The notes below the pieces were generated by a model that saw only the letters and a program-made list of their open reading frames with translations, made no database searches and was not told the origin of the DNA. From NCBI RefSeq assembly GCF_009914755.1, contig NC_060930.1: a stretch of 64,000 nucleotides of DNA; one strand, 5' to 3'. Numbering within the stretch: the stretch's first letter is position 1; every line of letters begins with the position of its first letter. The translations under genes were made by a program, and so were the position numbers. Source of the stretch: the human T2T-CHM13v2.0 reference genome, Homo sapiens. Shown piece after piece: positions 1 through 49,090 of this stretch.

Positions 1-2315
<2,315 letters not shown>

Positions 2316-2378
2316 TATGATGTTAGCTGGTTATTTTGCTCGTTAGTTGATGCAGTTTCTTCCTAGTCTCGATGGTCT

Positions 2379-3395
2379 TTACATTTTGGCATGATTTTGC
2401 AGCTGCTGGTACCGGTTGTTCCTTTCCATATTTAGCACTTCCTTCAGAAGCTCTTTTAGGGCATGCCCTGTGGTGACAAAATCTCTCAGCATTTGCTTGT
2501 CTGTAAAGGATTTTATTTCTCCTTCACTTATGAAGCTTAGTTTGGCTGGATATGAAATTCTGGGTTGAAAATTCTTTTCTTTAAGAATGTTGAATATTGG
2601 CCTCCACTCTCTTCTGGCTTGTAGGGTTTCTGCCGAGAGATCCGCTGTTAGTCTGATGGGCTTCCCTTTGAGGGTAACCCGACCTTTCTCTCTGGCTGCC
2701 CTTAACATTTTTTCCTTCATTTCAACTTTGGTGAATCTGACAATTATGTGTCTTGGAGTTGCTCTTCTCTAGGAATATCTTTGTGGCGTTCTCTGTATTT
2801 CCTGAATCTGAACGTTGGCCTGCCTTGCTAGATTGGGGAAGTTCTCCTGGATAATATCCTGCAGCATGTTTTCCAACTTGGTTCCATTCTCCCCATCACT
2901 TTCAGGTACACAAATCAGACGTAGATTTGGTCTTTTCACATAGTCCCATATTTCTTGGAGGCTTTGCTCATTTCTTTTTATTCTTTTTTCTCTGAACTTC
3001 CCTTCTAGCTTCATTTCATTCATTTCATCTTCCATTGCTGATACCCTTTCTTCCAGTTGATCGCATTGGCTCCTGAGGCTTCTGCATTCTTCACGTAGTT
3101 CTCAAGCCTTGGTTTTCAACTCCATCAGCTCCTTTAAGCATTTCTCTGTATTGGTTATTCTAGTTATACATTCTTCTAAATTTTTTTTAAAGTTTTCAAC
3201 TTCTTTGCCTTTGGTTTGAATGTCCTCCCGTAGCTCAGAGTAATTTGATCGTCTGAAGCCTTCTTCTCTCAGCTCGTCAATGTCATTCTCCATCCAGCTT
3301 TGTTCCGTTAATGGTGAGGAACTGTGTTCCTTTGGAGGAGGAGAGGTGCTCTGCTTTTTAGAGTTTCCAGTTTTTCTGTTCTGTTTTTTCCCCAT
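2379..3395 (-). pseudogene. L1 ORF1p, full length (1017 nt) with two in-frame nonsense codons
   Basis: Track ORFs 3102-3491, 2769-3035 and 2379-2720 are all in one frame. Stops are at 3102-3104 (TGA, expected CGA) and 2769-2771 (TAG). Confidence 0.93.
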
Positions 3396-4300
3396 CTTTG
3401 TGGTTTTATCTACTTTTGGTCTTTGATGATGGTGATGTACAGATGGGTTTTTGGTGTGGATGTCCTTTCTGTTTGTTAGTTTTCCTTCCAACAGAGAGGA
3501 CCCTCAGCTGCAGGTCTGTTGGAATACCCTGCCGTGTGAGGTGTCGGTGTGCCCCTGCTGGGGGGTGCCTCCCAGTTAGGCTGCTCGGTGGTCAGGGGTC
3601 AGGGACCCACTTGAGGAGGCAGTCTGCCTGTTCTCAGATCTCCAGCTGCGTGCTGGGAGAACCACTGCTCTCTTCAAAGCTGTCAGACAGGGACATTTAA
3701 GTCTGCAGAAGTTACTGCTGTCTTTTTGTTTGTCTGTTCCCTGCCCCCAGAGGTGGAGCCTACAGAGGCAGGCAGGCCTCCTTGAGCTGTGGTGGGCTCC
3801 ACCAGTTTGAGCTTCCCCGCTGCTTTGTTTACCTAATCAATCCTGGGCAATGGCGGGCGCCCCTCCCCCAGCCTCGCTGCCGCCTTGCAGTTTGATCTCA
3901 GACTGCTGTGCTAGCAGTCAGCAAGACTCCGTGGGCGTAGGACCCTCCGAGCCAGGTGCGGGACATAATCTTGTGGTGCGCTGTTTTTTAAGCCCGTAGG
4001 AAAAGCGCAGTATTCGGGTGGGAGTGACCTGATTTTCCAGGCGCTGTCCGTCACCCCTTTCTTTGACTGGGAAAGGGAACTCCCTGACCCCTTGTGCTTC
4101 CCAAGTGAGGCAATGCGTCGCCCTGCTTCGGCTCGCACACGGTGCACACACCCACTGACCTGTGCCCACTGTCTGGCACTCCCTAGTGAGATGAACCCGG
4201 TACCTCAGATGGAAATGCAGAAATCACCTGTCTTCTGTGTCGCTCACGCTGGGAGCTGTAGACTGGAGCTGTTCCTATTCGGCCATCTTGGCTCCTCCCC
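3396..4300 (-). promoter_or_regulatory. L1 5'UTR internal sense promoter and antisense promoter, YY1 site intact
   Basis: CAAGATGGC YY1 motif at 4282-4290 (reverse strand); many CpGs retained; canonical L1PA 5'UTR sequence. Confidence 0.85.
3850..3999 (+). pseudogene. L1 ORF0 (antisense ORF), truncated to 49 aa by a premature TAG
   Basis: ATG GCG GGC GCC CCT CCC CCA... translates to MAGAPPPASLPPCSLISDCCASSQQDSVGVGPSEPGAGHNLVVRCFLSP*, matching the N-terminus of the known 71-aa ORF0. Confidence 0.85.
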
Positions 4301-5110
4301 AATTCACCCTTTTAAAGTGTATGATTTAATGGCTTTTAGTATATTCTCAGAGTTGCACATTCATCATCACAATTTTAGAAGATTTTCATTACTCCAAAAG
4401 GAACTTCATGCTCCCACACCTCTTAACTGTCATCTCCTTTAGGTCAAATCCTGACCCTAGGCAACTGCTATCTATTTTCTGTCTCTATAGACTTGCCTGT
4501 TCTGAACATTTCATATAAATGGGATCATACAATATGGTCATTTGTAACTGGCCACTTTCCTTTAGCATAATGTGTCCAAGGTTCATCCATGTGATAGCAT
4601 GTATCAGTACTTCATTTCATTTTATTGCCCAATAATATTCCATGGCATGAATATACCACATTTTTTTTTTTTTTACCTATCCATCAGTTGATGGACATTT
4701 GAGTTTTTTACACTTTTTGGTTATTATAAATAATGCTGTTATGAATATTTATGAACCATTTTTTGGTGTATGCTTCCATTTCTCTTGGGTTTAAGTACCC
4801 AGGAATGGAATATACCTAGAAATGGAATGGCATGGTAACTGAATATTTAACCATCTAAGGAACTTACAGATTGGTTTCCAAAGTGGCTCTACCATTTTAC
4901 ATTCTCACCAGCAATCTATGAGGGTTTCAGTTTCTCCATATTCTCATCAACACTTGTTAGTCTCTGTCTTTTTTTAATTATAGCCATTCTAATGGGGATA
5001 AACTGCTATCTTGTCATGGTTTTTGTTTTCATTTCCCTGATGGCTAATGATGTTGAACAGTTTTCAAGTGCATATTGGCCATTTTAATATCTTATTTGGA
5101 GAAATGTCTA
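4301..5110 (-). mobile_element. Old L1 (L1MB-type) 3' end fragment; the young L1 sits in its 3' terminus
   Basis: AATTCACCCTTTTAAAGTGT..., CCATCAGTTGATGGACATTT and TTTCCCTGATGGCTAATGATGTTGA are typical reverse L1MB 3'UTR/ORF2-end motifs. Confidence 0.8.
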
Positions 5111-41080: not shown

Positions 41081-42181
41081 AAATGCACAATCTGCTTGAC
41101 TTACCTAGGCTAGAAAAAAATTATTGGCTTGGGGTTTCAGGAAAAAACAAAATAAAAGTAAAACTGTCATCCCATTAAAGTAATTGTTGAATATTTTTTC
41201 TTAATTTATTTTTTGAAGAGCTATTAAATAGGCTGTGACATTTGTTGGTGGTAAAAAATGAGCCAGTAGCAATTATTTCCCCATGTCCTTGTTGACTTGA
41301 ATAATACCAACTTTGCTTTGCTATGTACAACCTAACTGAAAATGCAGACCCAATGACTAATGTCTCGGGTGTGTCAAAATGGCATGCAGGCAGTGTTTAC
41401 AACTCATCTCTCTATTTAGCATTTCTCTCTGTTTCCAGATTAATGTTAGTTTCCTCTTAACTCATCAAGCTAAGTCCTTTCACAGGGGAATACAGATTCT
41501 ATTGCAATTACCTGGAAGAATCTCTACTCAAGTACTTGTTGGAAGTTCTTTGGGTGGAGTAGGGGTTTTAACAGGGAAATAAGCACTGCAAAATTATGTC
41601 CAGCTGTGTACAAATATTTATGGGAACAGCCACAGCAACTAAAATAATCGGTACAAAGAAAAACAATTACCAAACAAACATGACATTGTTTAGATGCAGC
41701 AGAATATTCCATGGCATCCCTCTCAATTCTCCATTATGGCTGTATTTATTAAATCTCAAAAAATTAGAAAAATTTCTGAAATTAGAAAGTAGTTGGCAAG
41801 AACTGGGTAGGCACTAATTATCATCATTTTCTAGAATAAGGACATTAATTAAAGAAAATATAAAGAAAGGGTTGTATTCTAGCCCAGGTACCAAAACATG
41901 ACTTAGAATACTTGGCAATTAAAAATATAAGTAATAATAAAAGGCTACATTTCAGAAATTTCTGTGTAAGAATTTGTAATTTATTGATCAGTGCAGCATT
42001 GACACAAATTAGAAAGAAAGTAGTAAAATATACAAGGGGAATCATATTGATTTTATTTAAAAATATAGGTTGGAGTTCATATAGATTTACATATCTCTTA
42101 GGATAAATCTACTTCTGAGAGACTCAGAGCCCAGTGTCTAAGAACAGTGGGTTTTAACATAAATACAATACTTCATGTAGC

Positions 42182-42478
42182 ACTCACTCAGGCTCAGCTC
42201 AGAACCACCTGCGTGTGCCCCTCCCACCAGCTTCAGGCTTCCCACAACCTTGCCCTGTGACAGCCATGCTGGGCACCCAGTGCATAGGCTTGCCCGTGGA
42301 GGTCGCCACGGAAGTCTGGACTGCTGAGGCATGTGGCTCATCTGCCGGCAGGTATTCTTTTGATGACAATGGATAGTGACTCTTCTCTTCTGCCTGAGAG
42401 TGGTTCAAAATTGAGTCTTCCAACTTCAAAATGACCAGGAAGCTTTCAGAGCCTGTTGAGGAACAGAAGAGTCCCCAG
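42182..42478 (+). other. Non-L1 leader fused to the 5' end of the L1 inside its apparent TSD (putative 5' transduction of host exon(s))
   Basis: Lies between the left TSD copy (42159-42181) and the start of L1 homology (42479). GC-rich and rich in TG/CA dinucleotides; ends in CAG at the L1 AATAG|GAACAG position. Confidence 0.7.
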
Positions 42479-45400
42479 GAAGAGCTCCAGTCTACAGCTG
42501 CCAACGAGATTGACACAGAAGATGGGTGATTTCTGCATTTCCAACTGAGGTACCTGGTTCATCTCACTGGGACTGGTTGGACAGTGGATGCAGCCCACAG
42601 AGGGTAGGGCATCGCCTCACTTGGGAAGCGCAAGGGGTCAGGGGATTTCCCTTTCCTAGCCAAGGGAAGCTGTGAGTGACTGTACCTGGAGGAGTGGTAC
42701 ACTCCTGCCCAAATACTGTGCTTTTCCCACAGTCTTCACAACTGCCAGACCAGGAGATCCCCTCCCATGCCTGGCTCAGTGGGTCCCATGCCCATGGAGC
42801 CTTGCTCACTGCTAGCGCAGCAGTCTGAGATTGACATGGGATGTGGGAGCTTAGCAGGTGAGGGGCGTCTGCCACTGCTGAGGCTTGAGCAGGTGGTTCT
42901 GTGGTCACAGTGTAAACAAAGTGGCAGGGAAGCTTGAACTAGGTGGAGCCCACCACAGCTCAGCAAGGTCTACTGCCGCACTAGATTCCACCTGTGGGGG
43001 CAGGGCACATATCAACAAAAGGCAGCAGACAGCATCTCCAGACTTAAACGTCCCTGCCTGACAGCTCTGAAGAGAGCTGTGGTTCTCCCAGCGTGGCGTT
43101 TGGCCTCCGATAAAGGACAGACTGCCTCCTCAAGTGGGTTCCTGACCCCGTGTAACCCAACTGGGAGACACCTCCCAGTAGGGGCCGACAGACTCCTTAT
43201 ACAGGCAGGTGCCCCTCTGGGATGAAGCTTCCAGAGGAAGGATCAGGCAGCAATATTTGCTATTCTGCAGCCTCCACTGGTGATACCTAAGCAAACAGGT
43301 TCTGGAGTGGACCTCCAGCAAACTCCAACAGACCTGCAGCTGAGGGACCTGTCTTTTAGAAGGAAAACTGACAAACAGAAAGGAATAGCATCAACATCAA
43401 CAAAAAGGACATTCACACCACAAAACCCCATCTGTAGGTCACCAACATCAAAGACCAAAGGTAGATAAAACTACAAAGTAGGGAGAAACCAGAGCAGAAA
43501 GTCTGAAAATTCCAAAAACCAGAATGCCTCTTTTCCTCTAAAGGATCACAACTCCTCACCAGCAATGAAACAAAACTGGACAGAGAATGAGTTTGACGAG
43601 TTGACAGAAGTAGGCTTCAGAAGGTGGTAATAAAAAACTTCTGTGAGCTAAAGGAGCATGTTCTAACCCATCACAAGGAAGCTAAAAGCCTTGAAAAAAA
43701 GGTTAGATGAATGGCTAACTAGAATAGTCAGTGTAGAGAAGAGCTTAAATGACCTGATGGAGCTGAAAACCACAGTATGAGAACTTCGTGAAGCATACAC
43801 AAGCTTCAATAGCCAATTTGATGAAGTGGAAGAAAGGATACCAGCGATTGAAGATCAAATTAATGAAATAAAGTGAGAAGACAAGATTAGAGAAAAAAGG
43901 GTGAAAAGAAATGAACAAAGCCTCCAAGAAATATGGCACTATGTGAAAAGACCAAATATACATTTCACTGGTGTACCTGAAAGGGATGGGGAGAATGGAA
44001 CCAAGTTAGAAAACACTCTTCAGGATATTATCCAGGAGAACTTCCCCAACCTAGCAAGGCAGGCCAATTTTCAAATACAGGAAATACAGAGAACACCACA
44101 AAAATACTCCTTGAGAAGAGCAACCCCAAGACTCATAAGTGTCAGATTCACCAAGGTTGAAATGAGGAAAAAATGTTAAGGGCGGCCAGAGAGAAAGGGA
44201 AGCCCATCAGATTAACAGCGGATCTCTCGGCAGAAACCCTACAAGCCAGAAAGGGTGGGGCCAATATTCAACATTCTTAAAGAAAAGAATTTACAACTCA
44301 GAATTTTATATCCAGCCAAACTAAGCTTCATAAGTGAAGGAGAAATAAAATCCTTTACAGACAAGCAAATGATGAGAGATTTTGTCACCACCAGGCCTGC
44401 CTTATAAGAGCTCCTGAAGGAAGCACTAAACATAAATAGGAACAACCACTACCAGTCACTGCAAAAACATGCTAAATTGTAAAGACCATCTACGTTATGA
44501 AGAAACTGCATCAATTAACAGGTGAAATAACCAGTTGGCATCATAATGACAGGATCAAATTTACACGTAACAATATTAACTTTAAATGTAAATGGGCTAA
44601 ATGCCCCAATTAAAAGACACAGACTGGCAAATCGAATAAAGAGTCAAGATCCATCAGTGGGCTGTATTGAGGAGACCCATCTCATGTGCAAAGACACACA
44701 TAGGCTCAAAATAAAGGGATGGAGGAAGATCTACCAAGCAAATGGAAATAAAAAAAAAAGCAGGGGTTGCAATCCTGGTCTCTTATAAAACAGACTTTAA
44801 ACCAACAAAGATCAAAAGAGACAAAGAAGGCCATTAAAAAATGGTAAAAGGATTAATTCAACAAGAAGAGCTAACTATCCTAAATATATATGCTCCCAAT
44901 ACAGGAGCACTCAGATTCATAAAGCAAGTTCTTAGAGACCTACAAAGAGACTTAGACTCCCACACAACAATAATGGGAGACTTTAACACACCACTGTCAA
45001 TATTAGACAGATCAATGAGACAGAAAATTAACAAGGATATCCAGGACTTGAACTCAGTTCTGGACCAAGAAGACCTAATAGATATCTACAGAACTCTCCA
45101 CCCCAAATCAACAGAATATACATTCTTCTCAGCACCACATCACACTTATTCTAAAATTGACCACGTAATTGGAAGTAAAGCACTCCTCAGCAAATATAAA
45201 AGAACAGAAATCACAACAAACTGTCTCTCAGACCACAGTGCAATCAAATTAGAACTCAGGATTAAGAATCTCACTCAAAACTGTACAACTACATGGAAAC
45301 TGAACAACCTGCTCCTGAATGACTACTGGGTAAATAAAGAAATGAAGGCAGAAATAAAGATGTTCTTTGAAACCAATGAGAACAAAGACACATTTAAAGC

Positions 45401-48400
45401 AGTGCGTAGAGGGAAATTTATAGCACTAAATGCCCACAAGAGAAAACAGGAGAGATCTAAAATCGACACCCTAACATCACAATTAAAAGAACTGGAGAAG
45501 CAAGAGCAAACACATTCTAGCAGAAGGCAAGAAATAACTAAAATCAGAGCAGAACTGAAGGAGATACAGCCACAAAAAACCGTTCAAAAAAATCAATGAA
45601 TCCAGGAGCTGGTTTTTTGAAAAGATCAACAAATTGATAGGCCACTAGCAAGACAAATAAAGAAGAAAAGAGAGGAGAATCAAATAACGCAATAAAAAAT
45701 GATAAAGGGGATATCACCACCAATCCCACAGAAATACAAACTACCATCAGAGAATACCATAAATACCTCTATGCAAATAAACTAGAAAATCTAGAAGAAA
45801 TGGATAAATTCCTCGACACATACACCCTCCCAAGACTAAACCAGGAAGAAGTTGAATCTCTGGATAGACCAAAAACAGGTTCTAAAATTGAGACAATAAT
45901 TAATAGCCTAACCAAAAAAAGTCCAGCACCAGATGGATTCACAGCCGAATTCTACCAGAGGTACAAAGAGGAGTTGGTACCATTCCTTCTGAAACTATTC
46001 CCATCAATAGAAAAAGAGGAAATCCTCTCTAACTCATTTTATGAGGCCAGTATCATCCTGATACCAAAGCCTGGCAGAGACACAACAACAACAAAAAAAT
46101 TTTAGGCCAATATCCCTGATGAACATTGATGCAAAAATCCTCAATAAAATACTGGCAAACCAAATCCAGCAGTACATTAAAAACCTTATCCACCATGATC
46201 AAGTGGGCTTCATCCCTGGGATGCAAGGCTGGTTCAACATACACAAATCAATAAACGTAATCTATCACATAAACAGAACCAATGACAAAAATCACATGAT
46301 TATCTTAACTGATGCAGAAATGGCCTTCGACAAAATCCAACAGCCCTTCATGCTAAAAACTCTCAATAAACTAGGTAACAGTGGAACGTATCTCAACATA
46401 ATAAGAGCTATTTATGACAAACCCACAGCCAATATCATATGGAATGGGCAAAAACGGGAAGCATTCTCTTTGAAAACCGGCACAACACAAGTATGCCCTC
46501 TCACATCACTCCTATTCAACATAGTATTGGAAGTCCTTGCCAGAGCAATCAGGCAAGAGCAGGAAATAAAGGGTATACAATTAGGAAAAGAGGAAGTCAA
46601 ATTGTCTCTGAGGATGACATGATTGTATATCTAGGAAACCCCATCATCTCAGCCCAAAATCTCCTTAAGCTGACAAACAACTTTAGCAAAGTCTCAGGAT
46701 ACAAAATCAACGTGCAAAAATCACAAGCATTCCTACACACCAATAACAGACAAACAGCCAAATCATGAGTGAACTCCCATTCACAATTGCTACAAAGAGA
46801 ATAAAATACCTAGGAATCCAACTTACAAGGTTTGTGAAGGACCTCTTCAAGGAGAACTACAAACCCCTGCTCAAGGAAATAAGAGAGGACACAAACAAAT
46901 AGATAAACGTTCCATGCTCATGGATAGGAAGAATCAATATTGTGAAAATGGCCTTACTGCCCAAAGTAATTTAGAGATTCAATGCTATCCCCATCAAGCT
47001 ACCACTGACTTTCTTCACAGAATTGGAAAAAACTACTTTAAACTTCATATGGAACCAAAAAAGAGCCCATGTAGTTAAGACAATCCTGGGCAAGAAGAAC
47101 AAAGCTGGAGGCATCACACTACCTTACTTCAGACTTTACTACAAGGCTACAGTAACCAAAACAGCATGGTACTGTTACCAAAACAGATATATAGACCAAT
47201 GGAACAGAATGGAAGCCTCAGAAATAACAATACACATCTATAACCATCTGATCTTTGACAAACCTGACACACACAAGCAATGGGGAAAAGATTCCCTATT
47301 TAATAAATGCTGTTGGGAAAATTGGCTAGCAATTGCAGAAAATTGAAACTGCACCCCTTCCTTACACCTCATACAAAAATCAATTCAAGTTGGATCAAAG
47401 AGTTAAACGTAAGACCTAGGACAATAAAAATCCTAGAAGAAAACCTGGGCAATACCATTCAGGACACAGGCATAGGCAAAGACTTCATGACTAAAACACC
47501 AAAAGCAATGGCAACAAAAGCCAAAATAGACAAATGGGATTTGATAAAACTAAAGAGCTTCTGCACAGAAAAATAAACTATCACCAGAGTGAACAGGCAA
47601 CCTACAGAATGGGAGAAAATTTTTGCAAGCTACCCATCTGACAAAGGGCTAATATCCAGAATCTACAAAGAACTTAAACAAATTTACTAGAAAAAAACAA
47701 CCCCATCAAAAAGTGGGTAAAGGATATGAACAGACACTTCTCAAAAAAGACGTCTGTGCAGCCAACAGACACATGAAAAAATGCTCCTCATCACTGGTCA
47801 TCAGAGAAATGCAAATCAAAACCACAATTAGATATCATCTCATGCCAGTTAGAATGGCAATCATTAAAAAGTCAGGAAACAACAGATGCTGGAGAGGATA
47901 TGAAGAAATAGGAATGCTTTTACACTGTTGGTGGGAGTGTAAATTGATTCAACCATTGTGGAAGACAGTGTGGAAATTCCTCAAGGATCTAGAACTAGAA
48001 TTACCATTTGACCTAGCAATCCCATTACTGGGTATATACCCAAAGGATTATAAATCATGCTACTATAAAGATGCATGCACATGTATGTTTATTGCAGCAC
48101 TATTAACAATAGCAAAGACTTGGAACCAATCCAAATATCCATCAATGATAGATTGGATTAAGAAAATGTGGCACATTTACACCATGGAATACTATGCAGC
48201 CATAAAAAAGGATGAGTTCGTGTCCTTTGCAGGAACATGGATGAAGCTGGAAACCATCATTCTTAGCAAAGTATCACAAGGACAGAAAACCAAACACCGC
48301 ATGTTCTCACTCATAGGGGGAATTGAACAATGAGATTACTTGGACACAGGGCAGGGAACATCACACACCAGGGCCTGTTGGGGGGTGGGCGGCTGGGGGA

Positions 48401-48545
48401 GGGATAGCATTAGGAGAAATACCTAATGTAAATGATGAGTTGATGGGTGCAGTAAACCAACATGGCACATGTATACCTATGTATCAAACCTGCACGTTGT
48501 GCACATGTACCCTAAAAGTTAAAGTATAATAATAATAAAAAAAAA
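42479..48545 (+). mobile_element. Near-full-length L1PA6-like element lacking its first ~26 nt; ORF1 and ORF2 disrupted
   Basis: 5'UTR from GAAGAGCTCCAGTCTACAGC. ORF1 ATG is mutated (ACAAAGTAGGGAG, ~43478) and ORF1 ends at ~44482. ORF2 (44546-48333) is in many fragments. 3'UTR and poly(A) present. Flanking direct repeat 42159-42181 / 48554-48576 (20/23 match). Confidence 0.95.
44546..48333 (+). pseudogene. L1 ORF2p, multiply frameshifted
   Basis: Track ORFs 44546, 44841, 45800, 46119, 46439, 47023, 47307 and 47713 tile the EN, RT and C-terminal CCHC regions in different frames. Confidence 0.93.
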
Positions 48546-48599
48546 TAACACTTATAAATACAGTACTTTAAGTAGCCTTCACTGGCTTTGTCACCTTAT

Positions 48600-49090
48600 C
48601 TTCCAGAAATCTATAGAATATCCTCATGATGAAAGCCACTTTAGATTTTTCCCTGCATTTCACTACCCCCAGCACTCCTACCACCACCACATGCCAGTCA
48701 ACTCTATCTCTTCAATGTCTCTCAAATCTGTTTTCTTTGGGGGGAGTGGGGTGTGTCATCTTTTCAGACCAGGATTACTACAATGACCCTCTTACTAGTT
48801 CCTCTTCCTCCATTCTTGATCTTTTTAAATCTGTATTTAAAACAGCTACCAGAGTAATATGTGTATAATAATAAAATGTATTGAGTGACTACTATATACC
48901 AGGCACTTTACATTGATAAGGCCATTTAATTCTCATGGTAATATCATTACTCTACTTTGTTTGATAAGGAAATTATGGCCGACAGAAGCCAAGTGGCCCA
49001 GGTGTCACATGGCAGTAAGAAGCAGAGCCAGGAGTTGAACCCTCAAGGTCTGAAACCCAGTTTGCTTTTCTATTACACTATGCTTCTTCT
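48600..49090. mobile_element. L2 fragment (plus, ~48600-48860) and MIR fragment (minus, ~48870-49090)
   Basis: CAGACCAGGATTACTACAATGACCCTCTTACTAG (L2); GATAAGGAAATTATGGCC...CCCAGGTGTCACATGG (MIR). Confidence 0.5.

What the first reader, a model, noticed from the sequence alone, without database searches (positions are those of the whole stretch)
42159..48576. L1PA6-like element carries a ~300-bp foreign, CpG-island-like leader inside its TSD: a candidate retrotransposed host-exon/L1 chimera
Seen in sequence: a 23-nt direct repeat ATAAATACA(A/G)TACTT(C/T)A(T/A)GTAGC (20/23 match) sits at 42159-42181 and just after the poly(A) at 48554-48576. L1 homology starts only at 42479. The first ~26 nt of L1 (GGGGAGGAGCCAAGATGGCCGAATAG, including the YY1 site, intact in the 1-4300 copy) are missing. 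The foreign sequence ends in ...CCCCAG exactly where L1 has AATAG|GAACAGCTCC. Established: TSDs bound everything copied by TPRT; 5' transductions arise from upstream promoters; SVA_F1 captured MAST2 exon 1 by splicing; L1 lineages have repeatedly recruited new 5' ends. Inference: a cellular promoter transcribed through an intronic L1, the RNA was spliced onto an AG at L1 position ~26, and the chimera retrotransposed. An RT template switch via AG microhomology is the alternative. If other copies share this leader, they would define an undescribed L1 sublineage driven by a host promoter.
Basis: partly seen in the sequence, partly recalled or inferred. Interest (0 to 1): 0.85.

Follow-up and report, generated by a model that had tools for sequence, protein, structure and literature searches.

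The report
Host-exon/L1 spliced chimera, retrotransposed once
An old, dead L1 retrotransposon on chromosome 6 carries at its front three neatly spliced exons of a chromosome 3 non-coding gene, a fossil of a host-gene/L1 fusion RNA that was copied back into the genome once; this rare class was catalogued in 2026, but this copy is not in that catalogue.

Summary
The 297-bp leader (42182-42478) has only three other matches in the genome. They are three collinear + strand pieces at CHM13 chr3:44.015-44.026 Mb, each bounded by canonical GT-AG splice sites. Piece 1 lies in a dense CpG island. 22 of the 42 leader/source differences are source CpG to TG/CA in the copy. The leader ends exactly at the exon-3 donor. 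L1 starts at nt 27 of a full-length L1, directly after an AG. A 20/23 TSD abuts both ends and there is one A-rich tail.

It is therefore a retrotransposed exon1-2-3/L1 spliced RNA. Non-CpG divergence suggests about 14-31 My. No + strand L1 lies in the 200 kb downstream of exon 3, so cis-splicing from a lost L1 and trans-splicing cannot be told apart. No other copy carries this leader, so there is no host-promoter-driven sublineage.

Law & Burns 2026 described this class with 17 hg38 cases. None of the 17 rows of their Table S5 is this element. It is a new member of a known kind.

The parts
42159..42181 (+). 5' target-site duplication. Core 23 nt; it may start at 42156 (AAC) if a 4-nt indel is allowed.
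   Evidence: matches 48554-48576 at 20/23. The score was reached by 3 of 5000 random window pairs and 0 of 5000 shuffles.
42182..42351 (+). Leader part 1, a copy of exon 1 of a chr3 transcript (CHM13 chr3:~44014895-44015089, +). Its CpGs have decayed and it has a 25-nt gap relative to the source.
   Evidence: 135 identical of 170 aligned columns. 21 of the 35 differences are source CpG to TG/CA. The source ends CGGCAG|GTGAGC.
42352..42411 (+). Leader part 2, a copy of exon 2 (chr3:44019184-44019243).
   Evidence: 58/60 identical. The source is flanked by TTACAG| and |GTAAGT.
42412..42478 (+). Leader part 3, a copy of exon 3 (chr3:44025881-44025947). It ends exactly at the exon-3 splice donor.
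   Evidence: 62/67 identical. The source is flanked by TTATAG| and |GTGAGT.
42479..48527 (+). Near full-length old L1 (L1PA5-7-like by divergence; subfamily not tested). It starts at nt 27 of the L1 5'UTR, directly after the position of an AG, and its reading frames are broken.
   Evidence: query 1-731 aligns to young-L1 27-773, and 846-4344 to 778-4300; only short frames; 39 other genomic 5'UTR copies are 84-88% identical.
48528..48553 (+). A-rich tail (pure A run 48537-48545), followed by T AAC ACTT, which is either degenerate tail or the start of an extended TSD.
   Evidence: read directly.
48554..48576 (+). 3' target-site duplication.

Best explanation
The unit 42182-48553 is a single L1-mediated (TPRT) insertion of a chimeric RNA. 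Transcription began at a CpG-island promoter on chr3 (CHM13 chr3:~44,014,895, + strand). Introns 1 (4,094 nt) and 2 (6,637 nt) were removed normally. The exon-3 donor was then spliced to a cryptic AG acceptor at nt 26/27 of an L1 5'UTR. The fusion RNA kept the whole L1 coding region, so it could be mobilised by its own proteins in cis. It inserted once on chr6.

Shown here: the spliced three-exon structure, the junction at donor and AG, the TSD and tail, that the leader is single-copy, and its CpG decay after insertion.

Inferred: that the RNA was made by the spliceosome, most simply in cis from an L1 that then sat in the long intron after exon 3 and was later lost or never fixed; that the L1 was coding-competent at the time; and the age of roughly 14-31 My.

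The copy was then methylated, decayed and left no descendants.
For:: the leader matches only itself and three collinear + strand chr3 pieces (query 2-172 at 70%, 168-230 at 97%, 231-297 at 93%).

all five exon boundaries have canonical sites: CAG|GTGAGC, TTACAG|, AAAAT|GTAAGT, TTATAG| and CCCCAG|GTGAGT.

255 of 297 aligned columns are identical. Of the 42 differences, 22 are source CpG to TG/CA in the copy and only 1 goes the other way. CpG count is 30 in the source exons and 5 in the copy. The source 1-kb region has GC 0.69 and CpG o/e 0.80.

L1 starts at nt 27, directly after AATAG.

the TSD is significant; there is one A-rich tail, at the L1 end only.

14 of 237 non-CpG columns differ (K2P 0.062). 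The two TSD copies differ at 3/23. Both fit an old insertion.

Precedent: Law & Burns 2026 (PMC13174262, section 13 read) report 17 such hg38 insertions. Six end precisely at splice donors, most carry near full-length L1, and most lack an identifiable intronic source L1.
Against: No + strand L1 of any kind lies in the 200 kb downstream of exon 3 in this genome. One search gave 7 HSPs, all on the minus strand and none covering the 5'UTR or ORF1. The cis-splicing source is therefore missing.

The 26 nt upstream of the AG in L1 are purine-rich. Within L1 alone this would be a weak acceptor with no pyrimidine tract.

The junction carries a 3-nt ambiguity: AGG is shared by the exon-3 end plus the first intron base and by L1. 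A microhomology-guided template switch could also use this.

The orthologous empty site could not be examined, because no other primate genome is held. Neither the gene name nor the expression of the chr3 transcript could be checked.
Confidence: 0.88

Rival explanations
1. Trans-splicing variant. The exon 1-3 pre-mRNA, waiting to splice across a very long intron, was trans-spliced to a separate L1 RNA at the AG at nt 26/27, and the product retrotransposed. This is a sub-variant of the splicing model, not a rival to the statement that the element is a spliced chimera.
For:: no + strand L1 in the 200 kb downstream of exon 3; the nearest landmark on the same strand, mir-138, is 104 kb downstream, so the following intron may be very long. 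Law & Burns (sections 13 and 20 read) favour trans-splicing because 15 of their 17 source loci lack an intronic L1, and the introns downstream of the captured exons are long (median 48 kb).
Against: Most new L1 insertions never fix, so a lost polymorphic source explains the absence just as well. Only 200 kb of one human genome was examined. Trans-splicing of L1 RNA in primates has not been shown directly in anything I read.
Confidence: 0.3
2. Template switch during reverse transcription. ORF2p copied L1 RNA up to nt 27 and then jumped, via AG/AGG microhomology, onto the chr3 transcript. This is the mechanism proposed for U6/L1-type chimeras.
For: A 2-3 nt microhomology is present at the junction. 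Template-switch chimeras do exist (Law & Burns Table S5 notes one such row).
Against: The switch point on the acceptor RNA would have to coincide, to within 1-3 nt, with the exon-3 donor. That point is internal to a spliced RNA, not a 3' end. At the same time the L1 break would have to fall right after an AG. Introns 1 and 2 are removed precisely, so the template was spliced RNA. Law & Burns (section 13) likewise do not favour template switching where a splice junction is present.
Confidence: 0.06
3. Two unrelated events or chance. Either the leader is older flanking DNA or a separate processed-pseudogene fragment, a 5'-truncated L1 landed next to it, and the 23-mer match is coincidence; or the arrangement arose by DNA-level rearrangement.
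For: The empty site was not examined. L1s truncated exactly at nt 27 next to ordinary flanks do exist (chr12 pair and chrX).
Against: There is no A-tail or second TSD between leader and L1. The TSD abuts the first leader base and the tail (3 of 5000 and 0 of 5000). The leader is intron-less and in sense orientation, and it stops exactly at a donor.
Confidence: 0.03

Closest known systems
L1 5'-transduction chimeras with mRNA/lncRNA exons (Law & Burns, Cell Genomics 2026, PMC13174262; sections 13, 14, 20, 22, 40 and all of Table S5 read)
   Same: First exons of a host transcript, in sense orientation, are fused to a near full-length L1 inside one TSD pair with one poly(A). The exon block ends at a splice donor. 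No source L1 is found in the host gene. The downstream intron is probably long.
   Different: This element is not among the 17 listed insertions; the listed chr6 entries are at 10.2 and 105.2 Mb, and a 19-nt leader motif is absent from all 4 supplementary files. The acceptor here is an AG at L1 nt 26/27. The L1-internal acceptors named in the paper are at 622/625 (L1PA5) and position 89 (L1PB1); the RAP1GDS1 case uses a cryptic site 15 bp upstream of the L1. Here three exons including a CpG-island exon are captured. Unlike RAP1GDS1-L1PA2 (four copies), this one left no progeny.
SVA_F1 (MAST2 exon 1) and chimpanzee pt_SVA_D6 (STK40 exon 1) (Damert 2018, PMC6139936, passages read; the 2009 papers seen only as references there)
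   Same: A GC-rich first exon of a host gene is spliced onto an AG acceptor near the 5' end of a non-LTR retrotransposon, and the product is retrotransposed.
   Different: Those chimeras became source elements (84 and 94 copies), and the exon works as an internal promoter. Here there is one copy and its CpGs have decayed. The carrier here is an autonomous L1, not SVA.
SpIREs, spliced integrated retrotransposed elements (Larson et al. 2018, PMC5860796; abstract and passages read)
   Same: These are retrotransposed products of spliced L1 RNA. They show that L1 RNA is a spliceosome substrate.
   Different: SpIREs are spliced within L1 (named forms SpIRE97/622 and SpIRE97/976) and lack an internal piece of the 5'UTR. 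Here the 5'UTR is collinear from nt 27 onward and the donor is in a host exon.
Template-switch chimeric retrogenes (U6/L1 type; Buzdin 2002, seen only as a reference in PMC5860796; otherwise recalled)
   Same: Bipartite structure inside one TSD, with the L1 part at the 3' side.
   Different: In those chimeras the 5' partner is usually a small RNA copied to its 3' end, the L1 part is usually a short 3' fragment, and there are no splice signals at the joint. Here the joint is a donor/AG pair and the L1 is nearly full length.

Membership tests
Spliced host-exon/L1 5'-transduction chimera (Law & Burns class) | Non-L1 sequence lies directly 5' of L1, in sense orientation, inside the same TSD pair, with one poly(A) at the L1 end. 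| tested here: met
   TSD 20/23 abutting both ends; A-rich tail only at 48528-48546.
Spliced host-exon/L1 5'-transduction chimera (Law & Burns class) | The non-L1 part maps to exons of a gene elsewhere, with introns removed. | tested here: met
   three chr3 pieces separated by 4,094 and 6,637 nt, all with GT-AG. That they are annotated exons could not be checked.
Spliced host-exon/L1 5'-transduction chimera (Law & Burns class) | The exon block ends at a splice donor, and L1 begins next to an acceptor AG. | tested here: met
   CCCCAG|GTGAGT in the source. L1 nt 27 follows AATAG.
Spliced host-exon/L1 5'-transduction chimera (Law & Burns class) | Leader and L1 arrive together in multi-species alignments. 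| not testable with these tools
   No other primate genome is held (one search states that the genome has no relatives here).
Spliced host-exon/L1 5'-transduction chimera (Law & Burns class) | L1 endonuclease-type target site. | tested here: inconclusive
   Read directly: AC/ATAA with the 23-nt core, or TT/AACA if the TSD is extended by AAC with a 4-nt indel.
Host-promoter-driven retrotransposon sublineage (SVA_F1-like, RAP1GDS1-L1PA2-like) | Several insertions at different sites share the same leader. | tested here: not met
   4 candidates, 4 scored, namely the element itself and the three source exons. The search detected a 70%-identical match, so copies of similar age should have been seen.
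Cis-spliced intronic L1 (RAP1GDS1 model) | A same-strand source L1 lies in the intron downstream of the last captured exon. | tested here: not met
   0 + strand L1 HSPs in chr3:44025948-44225947.
SpIRE | Internal 5'UTR deletion between an L1 donor (nt 97) and an L1 acceptor (622/976). | tested here: not met
   the 5'UTR aligns collinearly (1-731 to 27-773, then 846-4344 to 778-4300). The only discontinuity is about 110 nt extra in the chimera, not a deletion.
Template-switch chimera (U6/L1 type) | The junction is unrelated to splice sites and the 5' partner is copied to its 3' end. | tested here: not met
   the junction is at an internal exon donor; an AG is on the L1 side.

The most novel reading that the evidence does not exclude
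The captured exons belong to the primary or host transcript of miR-138-1, whose precursor lies 104 kb downstream on the same strand. They were joined to L1 RNA by trans-splicing at a previously unlisted cryptic acceptor at L1 nt 26/27. The element would then be a datable germline fossil showing that L1 RNA can be trans-spliced to pre-mRNAs stalled before very long introns. That route could let L1 swap its promoter-bearing 5' end for a host CpG-island exon.
Probability: 0.25. Interest if true: 0.6.

Novelty: new member of a known kind. Interest (0 to 1): 0.45.

Why it matters
L1 lineages have repeatedly replaced their 5'UTRs, and how they do this is an open question. Fossils in which a host first exon is spliced onto a coding-length L1 are the only direct record of a plausible route, and only 17 have been catalogued in hg38.

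This element is an especially clean additional case. It has three exons and five canonical splice boundaries. It has an exact donor-to-AG joint, with no untemplated bases, at a defined L1 position that removes the first 26 nt of the L1 5' end. It also shows a clear signature of CpG-island decay.

It is also a negative example. Capturing a CpG-island exon did not found a new lineage, and the copied exon was methylated and decayed. This is useful when judging how often such swaps succeed. Its absence from the published table suggests the catalogue is incomplete.

Tried and rejected
(1) Source L1. I ran blastn of the chimera's L1 against 200 kb downstream of chr3 exon 3. It gave only 7 minus-strand fragments.

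(2) Closest genomic relatives of the 5'UTR. Of 7653 candidates, 40 were scored and the best was 88% identical. The only chr3 hit is at 68.9 Mb on the minus strand. Nothing points to a source.

(3) Recurrent use of the nt-26/27 acceptor. An IUPAC pattern search looked for L1s that begin at nt 27 after four non-L1 bases plus AG. It gave 5 hits and 0 in the reversed-pattern control.
- Two hits (chr1, chr2) read ATGGAG before nt 27. From the 32-mers alone, they look like L1s with a 6-nt internal deletion.
- The chr12 pair has a repeated, AT-rich flank.
- The chrX flank is unique, with no second copy.
No further exon chimeras were found. The screen is insensitive: it needs an exact 27-nt L1 match and would pass only about a third of true cases.

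(4) Rejected readings. The leader is not a known repeat or flanking DNA, because it has only 4 genomic matches. The element is not a SpIRE.

(6) The chr3 gene could not be named, because no annotation for that region was available. Paper search gave 0 papers for its four terms.
Full report
**Observation.**

A 23-nt direct repeat lies at 42159-42181 and at 48554-48576 and matches at 20 of 23 positions. I scored the best ungapped local match between the 40 nt before the leader and the 40 nt after the tail. That score was reached by 3 of 5000 random pairs of 40-mers 6.4 kb apart in this window, and by 0 of 5000 shuffles. The test did not even require the match to abut both ends of the insert, which it does.

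Read directly, the repeat may extend by AAC (42156-42158 and 48547-48549) if a 4-nt indel (ACTT, 48550-48553) is allowed. The target would then read TT/AACA, close to the usual L1 endonuclease site. With the 23-nt core alone it reads AC/ATAA. I treat this point as inconclusive.

An A-rich tail (48528-48546, with a pure A run at 48537-48545) is present only at the 3' end.

L1 homology starts at 42479. In a blastn against the window's own full-length L1 5' end (reverse complement of 1-4300), L1 nt 1 of the chimera aligns to nt 27 of that copy. The rest is collinear: 1-731 aligns to 27-773 at 72% identity, and 846-4344 aligns to 778-4300 at 86.6%. The 26 nt that are missing are present in the other copy at 4300-4275 on the minus strand and end in ...AATAG. 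The leader ends in ...CCCCAG at 42478.

**What the leader is.**

The whole CHM13 genome was searched with the 297-bp leader. The first look returned 4 candidates and all 4 were scored. They are the leader itself and three + strand pieces on chr3:
- 44014896-44015091 (query 2-172, 70% identity)
- 44019181-44019243 (query 168-230, 97%)
- 44025881-44025947 (query 231-297, 93%)

The leader is therefore not a repeat, and no other L1 carries it.

Reading the chr3 flanks shows canonical splice signals at every boundary:
- Piece 1 ends CGGCAG|GTGAGC.
- Piece 2 is bounded by TTACAG| and AAAAT|GTAAGT.
- Piece 3 is bounded by TTATAG| and CCCCAG|GTGAGT.

After trimming the shared splice-site bases, the exons are about 44014895-44015089, 44019184-44019243 and 44025881-44025947. 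The introns removed are 4,094 and 6,637 nt long.

The direction of copying is unambiguous: chr3 has the introns and chr6 does not.

**CpG decay.**

Piece 1 lies in a CpG island; the surrounding 1-kb region has GC 0.69 and CpG o/e 0.80. Across the 297 aligned columns, 255 are identical and 42 differ:

| Type of difference | Count |
|---|---|
| Source CpG read as TG or CA in the chr6 copy | 22 |
| The reverse | 1 |
| Other transitions | 8 |
| Transversions | 11 |

There is also one 25-nt gap in the copy within exon 1. The source exons hold 30 CpG and the copy holds 5.

This is the pattern expected if an unmethylated island exon was copied into a methylated context. It also means the copied exon did not remain an active CpG-island promoter in the germline.

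**Age.**

Leaving out every column that is CpG in either sequence, 14 of 237 columns differ (K2P 0.062). With per-lineage rates of 1.0-2.2 x 10^-9 per year this gives about 14-31 My. The sample is small and the source exons may be constrained, so the estimate is rough.

The two TSD copies differ at 3 of 23 positions. The L1 frames are shattered: one search lists 22 stop-to-stop frames of at least 80 aa overlapping 42100-48600, and the longest on the + strand is 253 aa. The best of 39 other genomic 5'UTR copies scored is 88% identical (7653 candidates, 40 scored).

All of this fits an L1PA5-7-age element. The published ages of those subfamilies are recalled, not checked here. The subfamily label itself was not tested because no repeat library was available.

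**Mechanism.**

The leader stops exactly at a strong donor, and the L1 starts exactly after an AG. The simplest reading is that the spliceosome joined exon 3 to a cryptic acceptor at L1 nt 26/27. The resulting RNA (exons 1-3 followed by L1 from nt 27 to its poly(A)) was then inserted by target-primed reverse transcription. It kept both L1 reading frames, so L1 proteins translated from it could act on it in cis. That step is an inference from L1 biology.

A template switch by the reverse transcriptase is the main alternative. The junction has a 2-3 nt ambiguity (AG, or AGG if the first intron base is counted) that could serve as microhomology. However, the jump would have to land within 1-3 nt of an internal exon boundary of an already spliced RNA, while the L1 break falls right after an AG. 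I put this at about 6%.

Two independent insertions, or a chance TSD, are unlikely (about 3%). There is no tail or second TSD between leader and L1, and the TSD abuts the first leader base.

**Cis or trans?**

I fetched chr3:44025948-44225947 and compared it with the chimera's L1. There were 7 HSPs, all on the minus strand. None covered the 5'UTR or ORF1. No source L1 lies within 200 kb in this genome.

Within L1 the acceptor would be weak, because the 26 nt upstream of the AG are purine-rich.

Two readings remain. In the first, an L1 once sat in that intron as a polymorphism that was lost; I favour this because most insertions never fix. In the second, the two RNAs were trans-spliced (about 0.3). 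These tools cannot separate them.

In the same 200 kb, a mir-138 precursor was found on the + strand at chr3:44,129,793-44,129,863. This is 103,846 nt after exon 3 (82.4 bits against a gathering score of 50). The captured exons may therefore belong to the primary or host transcript of miR-138-1, and the intron after exon 3 may be very long. Both points are inferences.

**Comparison with what is known.**

Law & Burns (Cell Genomics 2026, PMC13174262; I read sections 13, 14, 20, 22 and 40 and all three parts of Table S5) describe this class:
- 17 hg38 L1 insertions carry mRNA or lncRNA sequence at the 5' end, and 15 of them are in sense orientation.
- Most have near full-length L1.
- Six end precisely at splice donors.
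- 15 source loci have no intronic L1.
- The downstream introns are long (median 48 kb).
- For one family (RAP1GDS1-L1PA2, four copies) the intronic source was found.

They discuss cis- and trans-splicing and do not favour template switching where a splice junction is present.

None of the 17 rows is this element. Their chr6 entries are at 10.2 Mb (RPL21) and 105.2 Mb (CREM). Their chr3 sources are at 18.7, 61.0-61.3 and 185.3 Mb. A 19-nt motif from the leader occurs in none of the four supplementary files. The table is in hg38 coordinates and the window in CHM13, but the shift cannot be tens of megabases.

The L1-internal acceptors named in that paper are at 622/625 (L1PA5) and at position 89 (L1PB1), and the RAP1GDS1 case uses a cryptic site 15 bp upstream of the L1. 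None is at nt 26/27.

SVA_F1 (MAST2 exon 1) and chimpanzee pt_SVA_D6 (STK40 exon 1) are the SVA counterparts (Damert 2018, PMC6139936, passages read). They expanded to 84 and 94 copies.

SpIREs (Larson 2018, PMC5860796, abstract and passages read) are spliced within L1. This element lacks their internal deletion.

**Is the acceptor used elsewhere?**

An IUPAC pattern search looked for L1s that begin at nt 27 after AG preceded by four non-L1 bases. It gave 5 hits, and 0 with the reversed control pattern.
- Two hits (chr1, chr2) read ATGGAG before nt 27. From the 32-mers alone they look like L1s with a 6-nt internal deletion.
- The chr12 pair has an AT-rich flank that is itself repeated.
- The chrX flank is unique, with no second genomic copy.

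No further exon chimera at this acceptor was found. The screen is narrow, because it needs an exact 27-nt L1 match.

**Verdict.**

Not shown: the intronic source L1 and the empty orthologous site.

Refuted for this genome: a sublineage sharing the leader.

This is a new, particularly clean member of a class published in 2026. It is not a new kind of element.

I put 0.88 on the spliced-chimera reading. Interest is moderate (0.45).

Noticed in passing
L015:3846-3916 (+), = CHM13 chr3:44,129,793-44,129,863: A mir-138 precursor (Rfam RF00671, 82.4 bits) lies 104 kb downstream of the captured exon 3, on the same strand. The captured exons may be the 5' exons of the miR-138-1 primary or host transcript.
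   Followed up: partly
L011:708-807 (+), = CHM13 chr3:44,086,655-44,086,754: A full-length U6 snRNA-like copy (RF00026, 62.5 bits) lies in the same chr3 interval. Whether it is a U6 pseudogene or a U6/L1-type chimera was not examined.
   Followed up: no
window 1-4300 (-): A younger L1 has an intact 5' end at 4300 and runs off the window start. The hub's RefSeq 'enhancer' features (3408-3978, 3979-4549) overlap its 5'UTR. Relative to the chimera's L1 it lacks about 110 nt of 5'UTR.
   Followed up: partly
G000:C1:190795281-190795312 (-) and G000:C2:235264552-235264583 (+): Two L1s at different loci read ATGGAG directly before nt 27. This looks like the same 6-nt deletion in the first 26 nt of the L1, the stretch said to hold the YY1 box. 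They could be a small deletion-bearing sublineage or parallel deletions. This is judged from the 32-mers only.
   Followed up: no
G000:C12:11246368-11246399 and C12:11285391-11285422 (+); G000:C23:27797542-27797573 (+): These L1s begin exactly at nt 27 next to ordinary AT-rich flanks ending in AG. The chr12 pair lies in a locally duplicated block (flank copies at 86-97% identity within chr12:11.15-11.29 Mb).
   Followed up: partly
window 42264/42265 versus chr3 exon 1: The chr6 copy lacks 25 nt that are present in the chr3 exon 1. This could be a deletion in the copy or a later insertion in the source; it was not resolved.
   Followed up: no
window 42369-42413: The captured exon 2 holds an ATG that opens a 14-codon frame closed by a TGA spanning the exon 2/3 joint (read). 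The source therefore looks non-coding, and the chimeric RNA would have carried a short upstream ORF ahead of ORF1.
   Followed up: no
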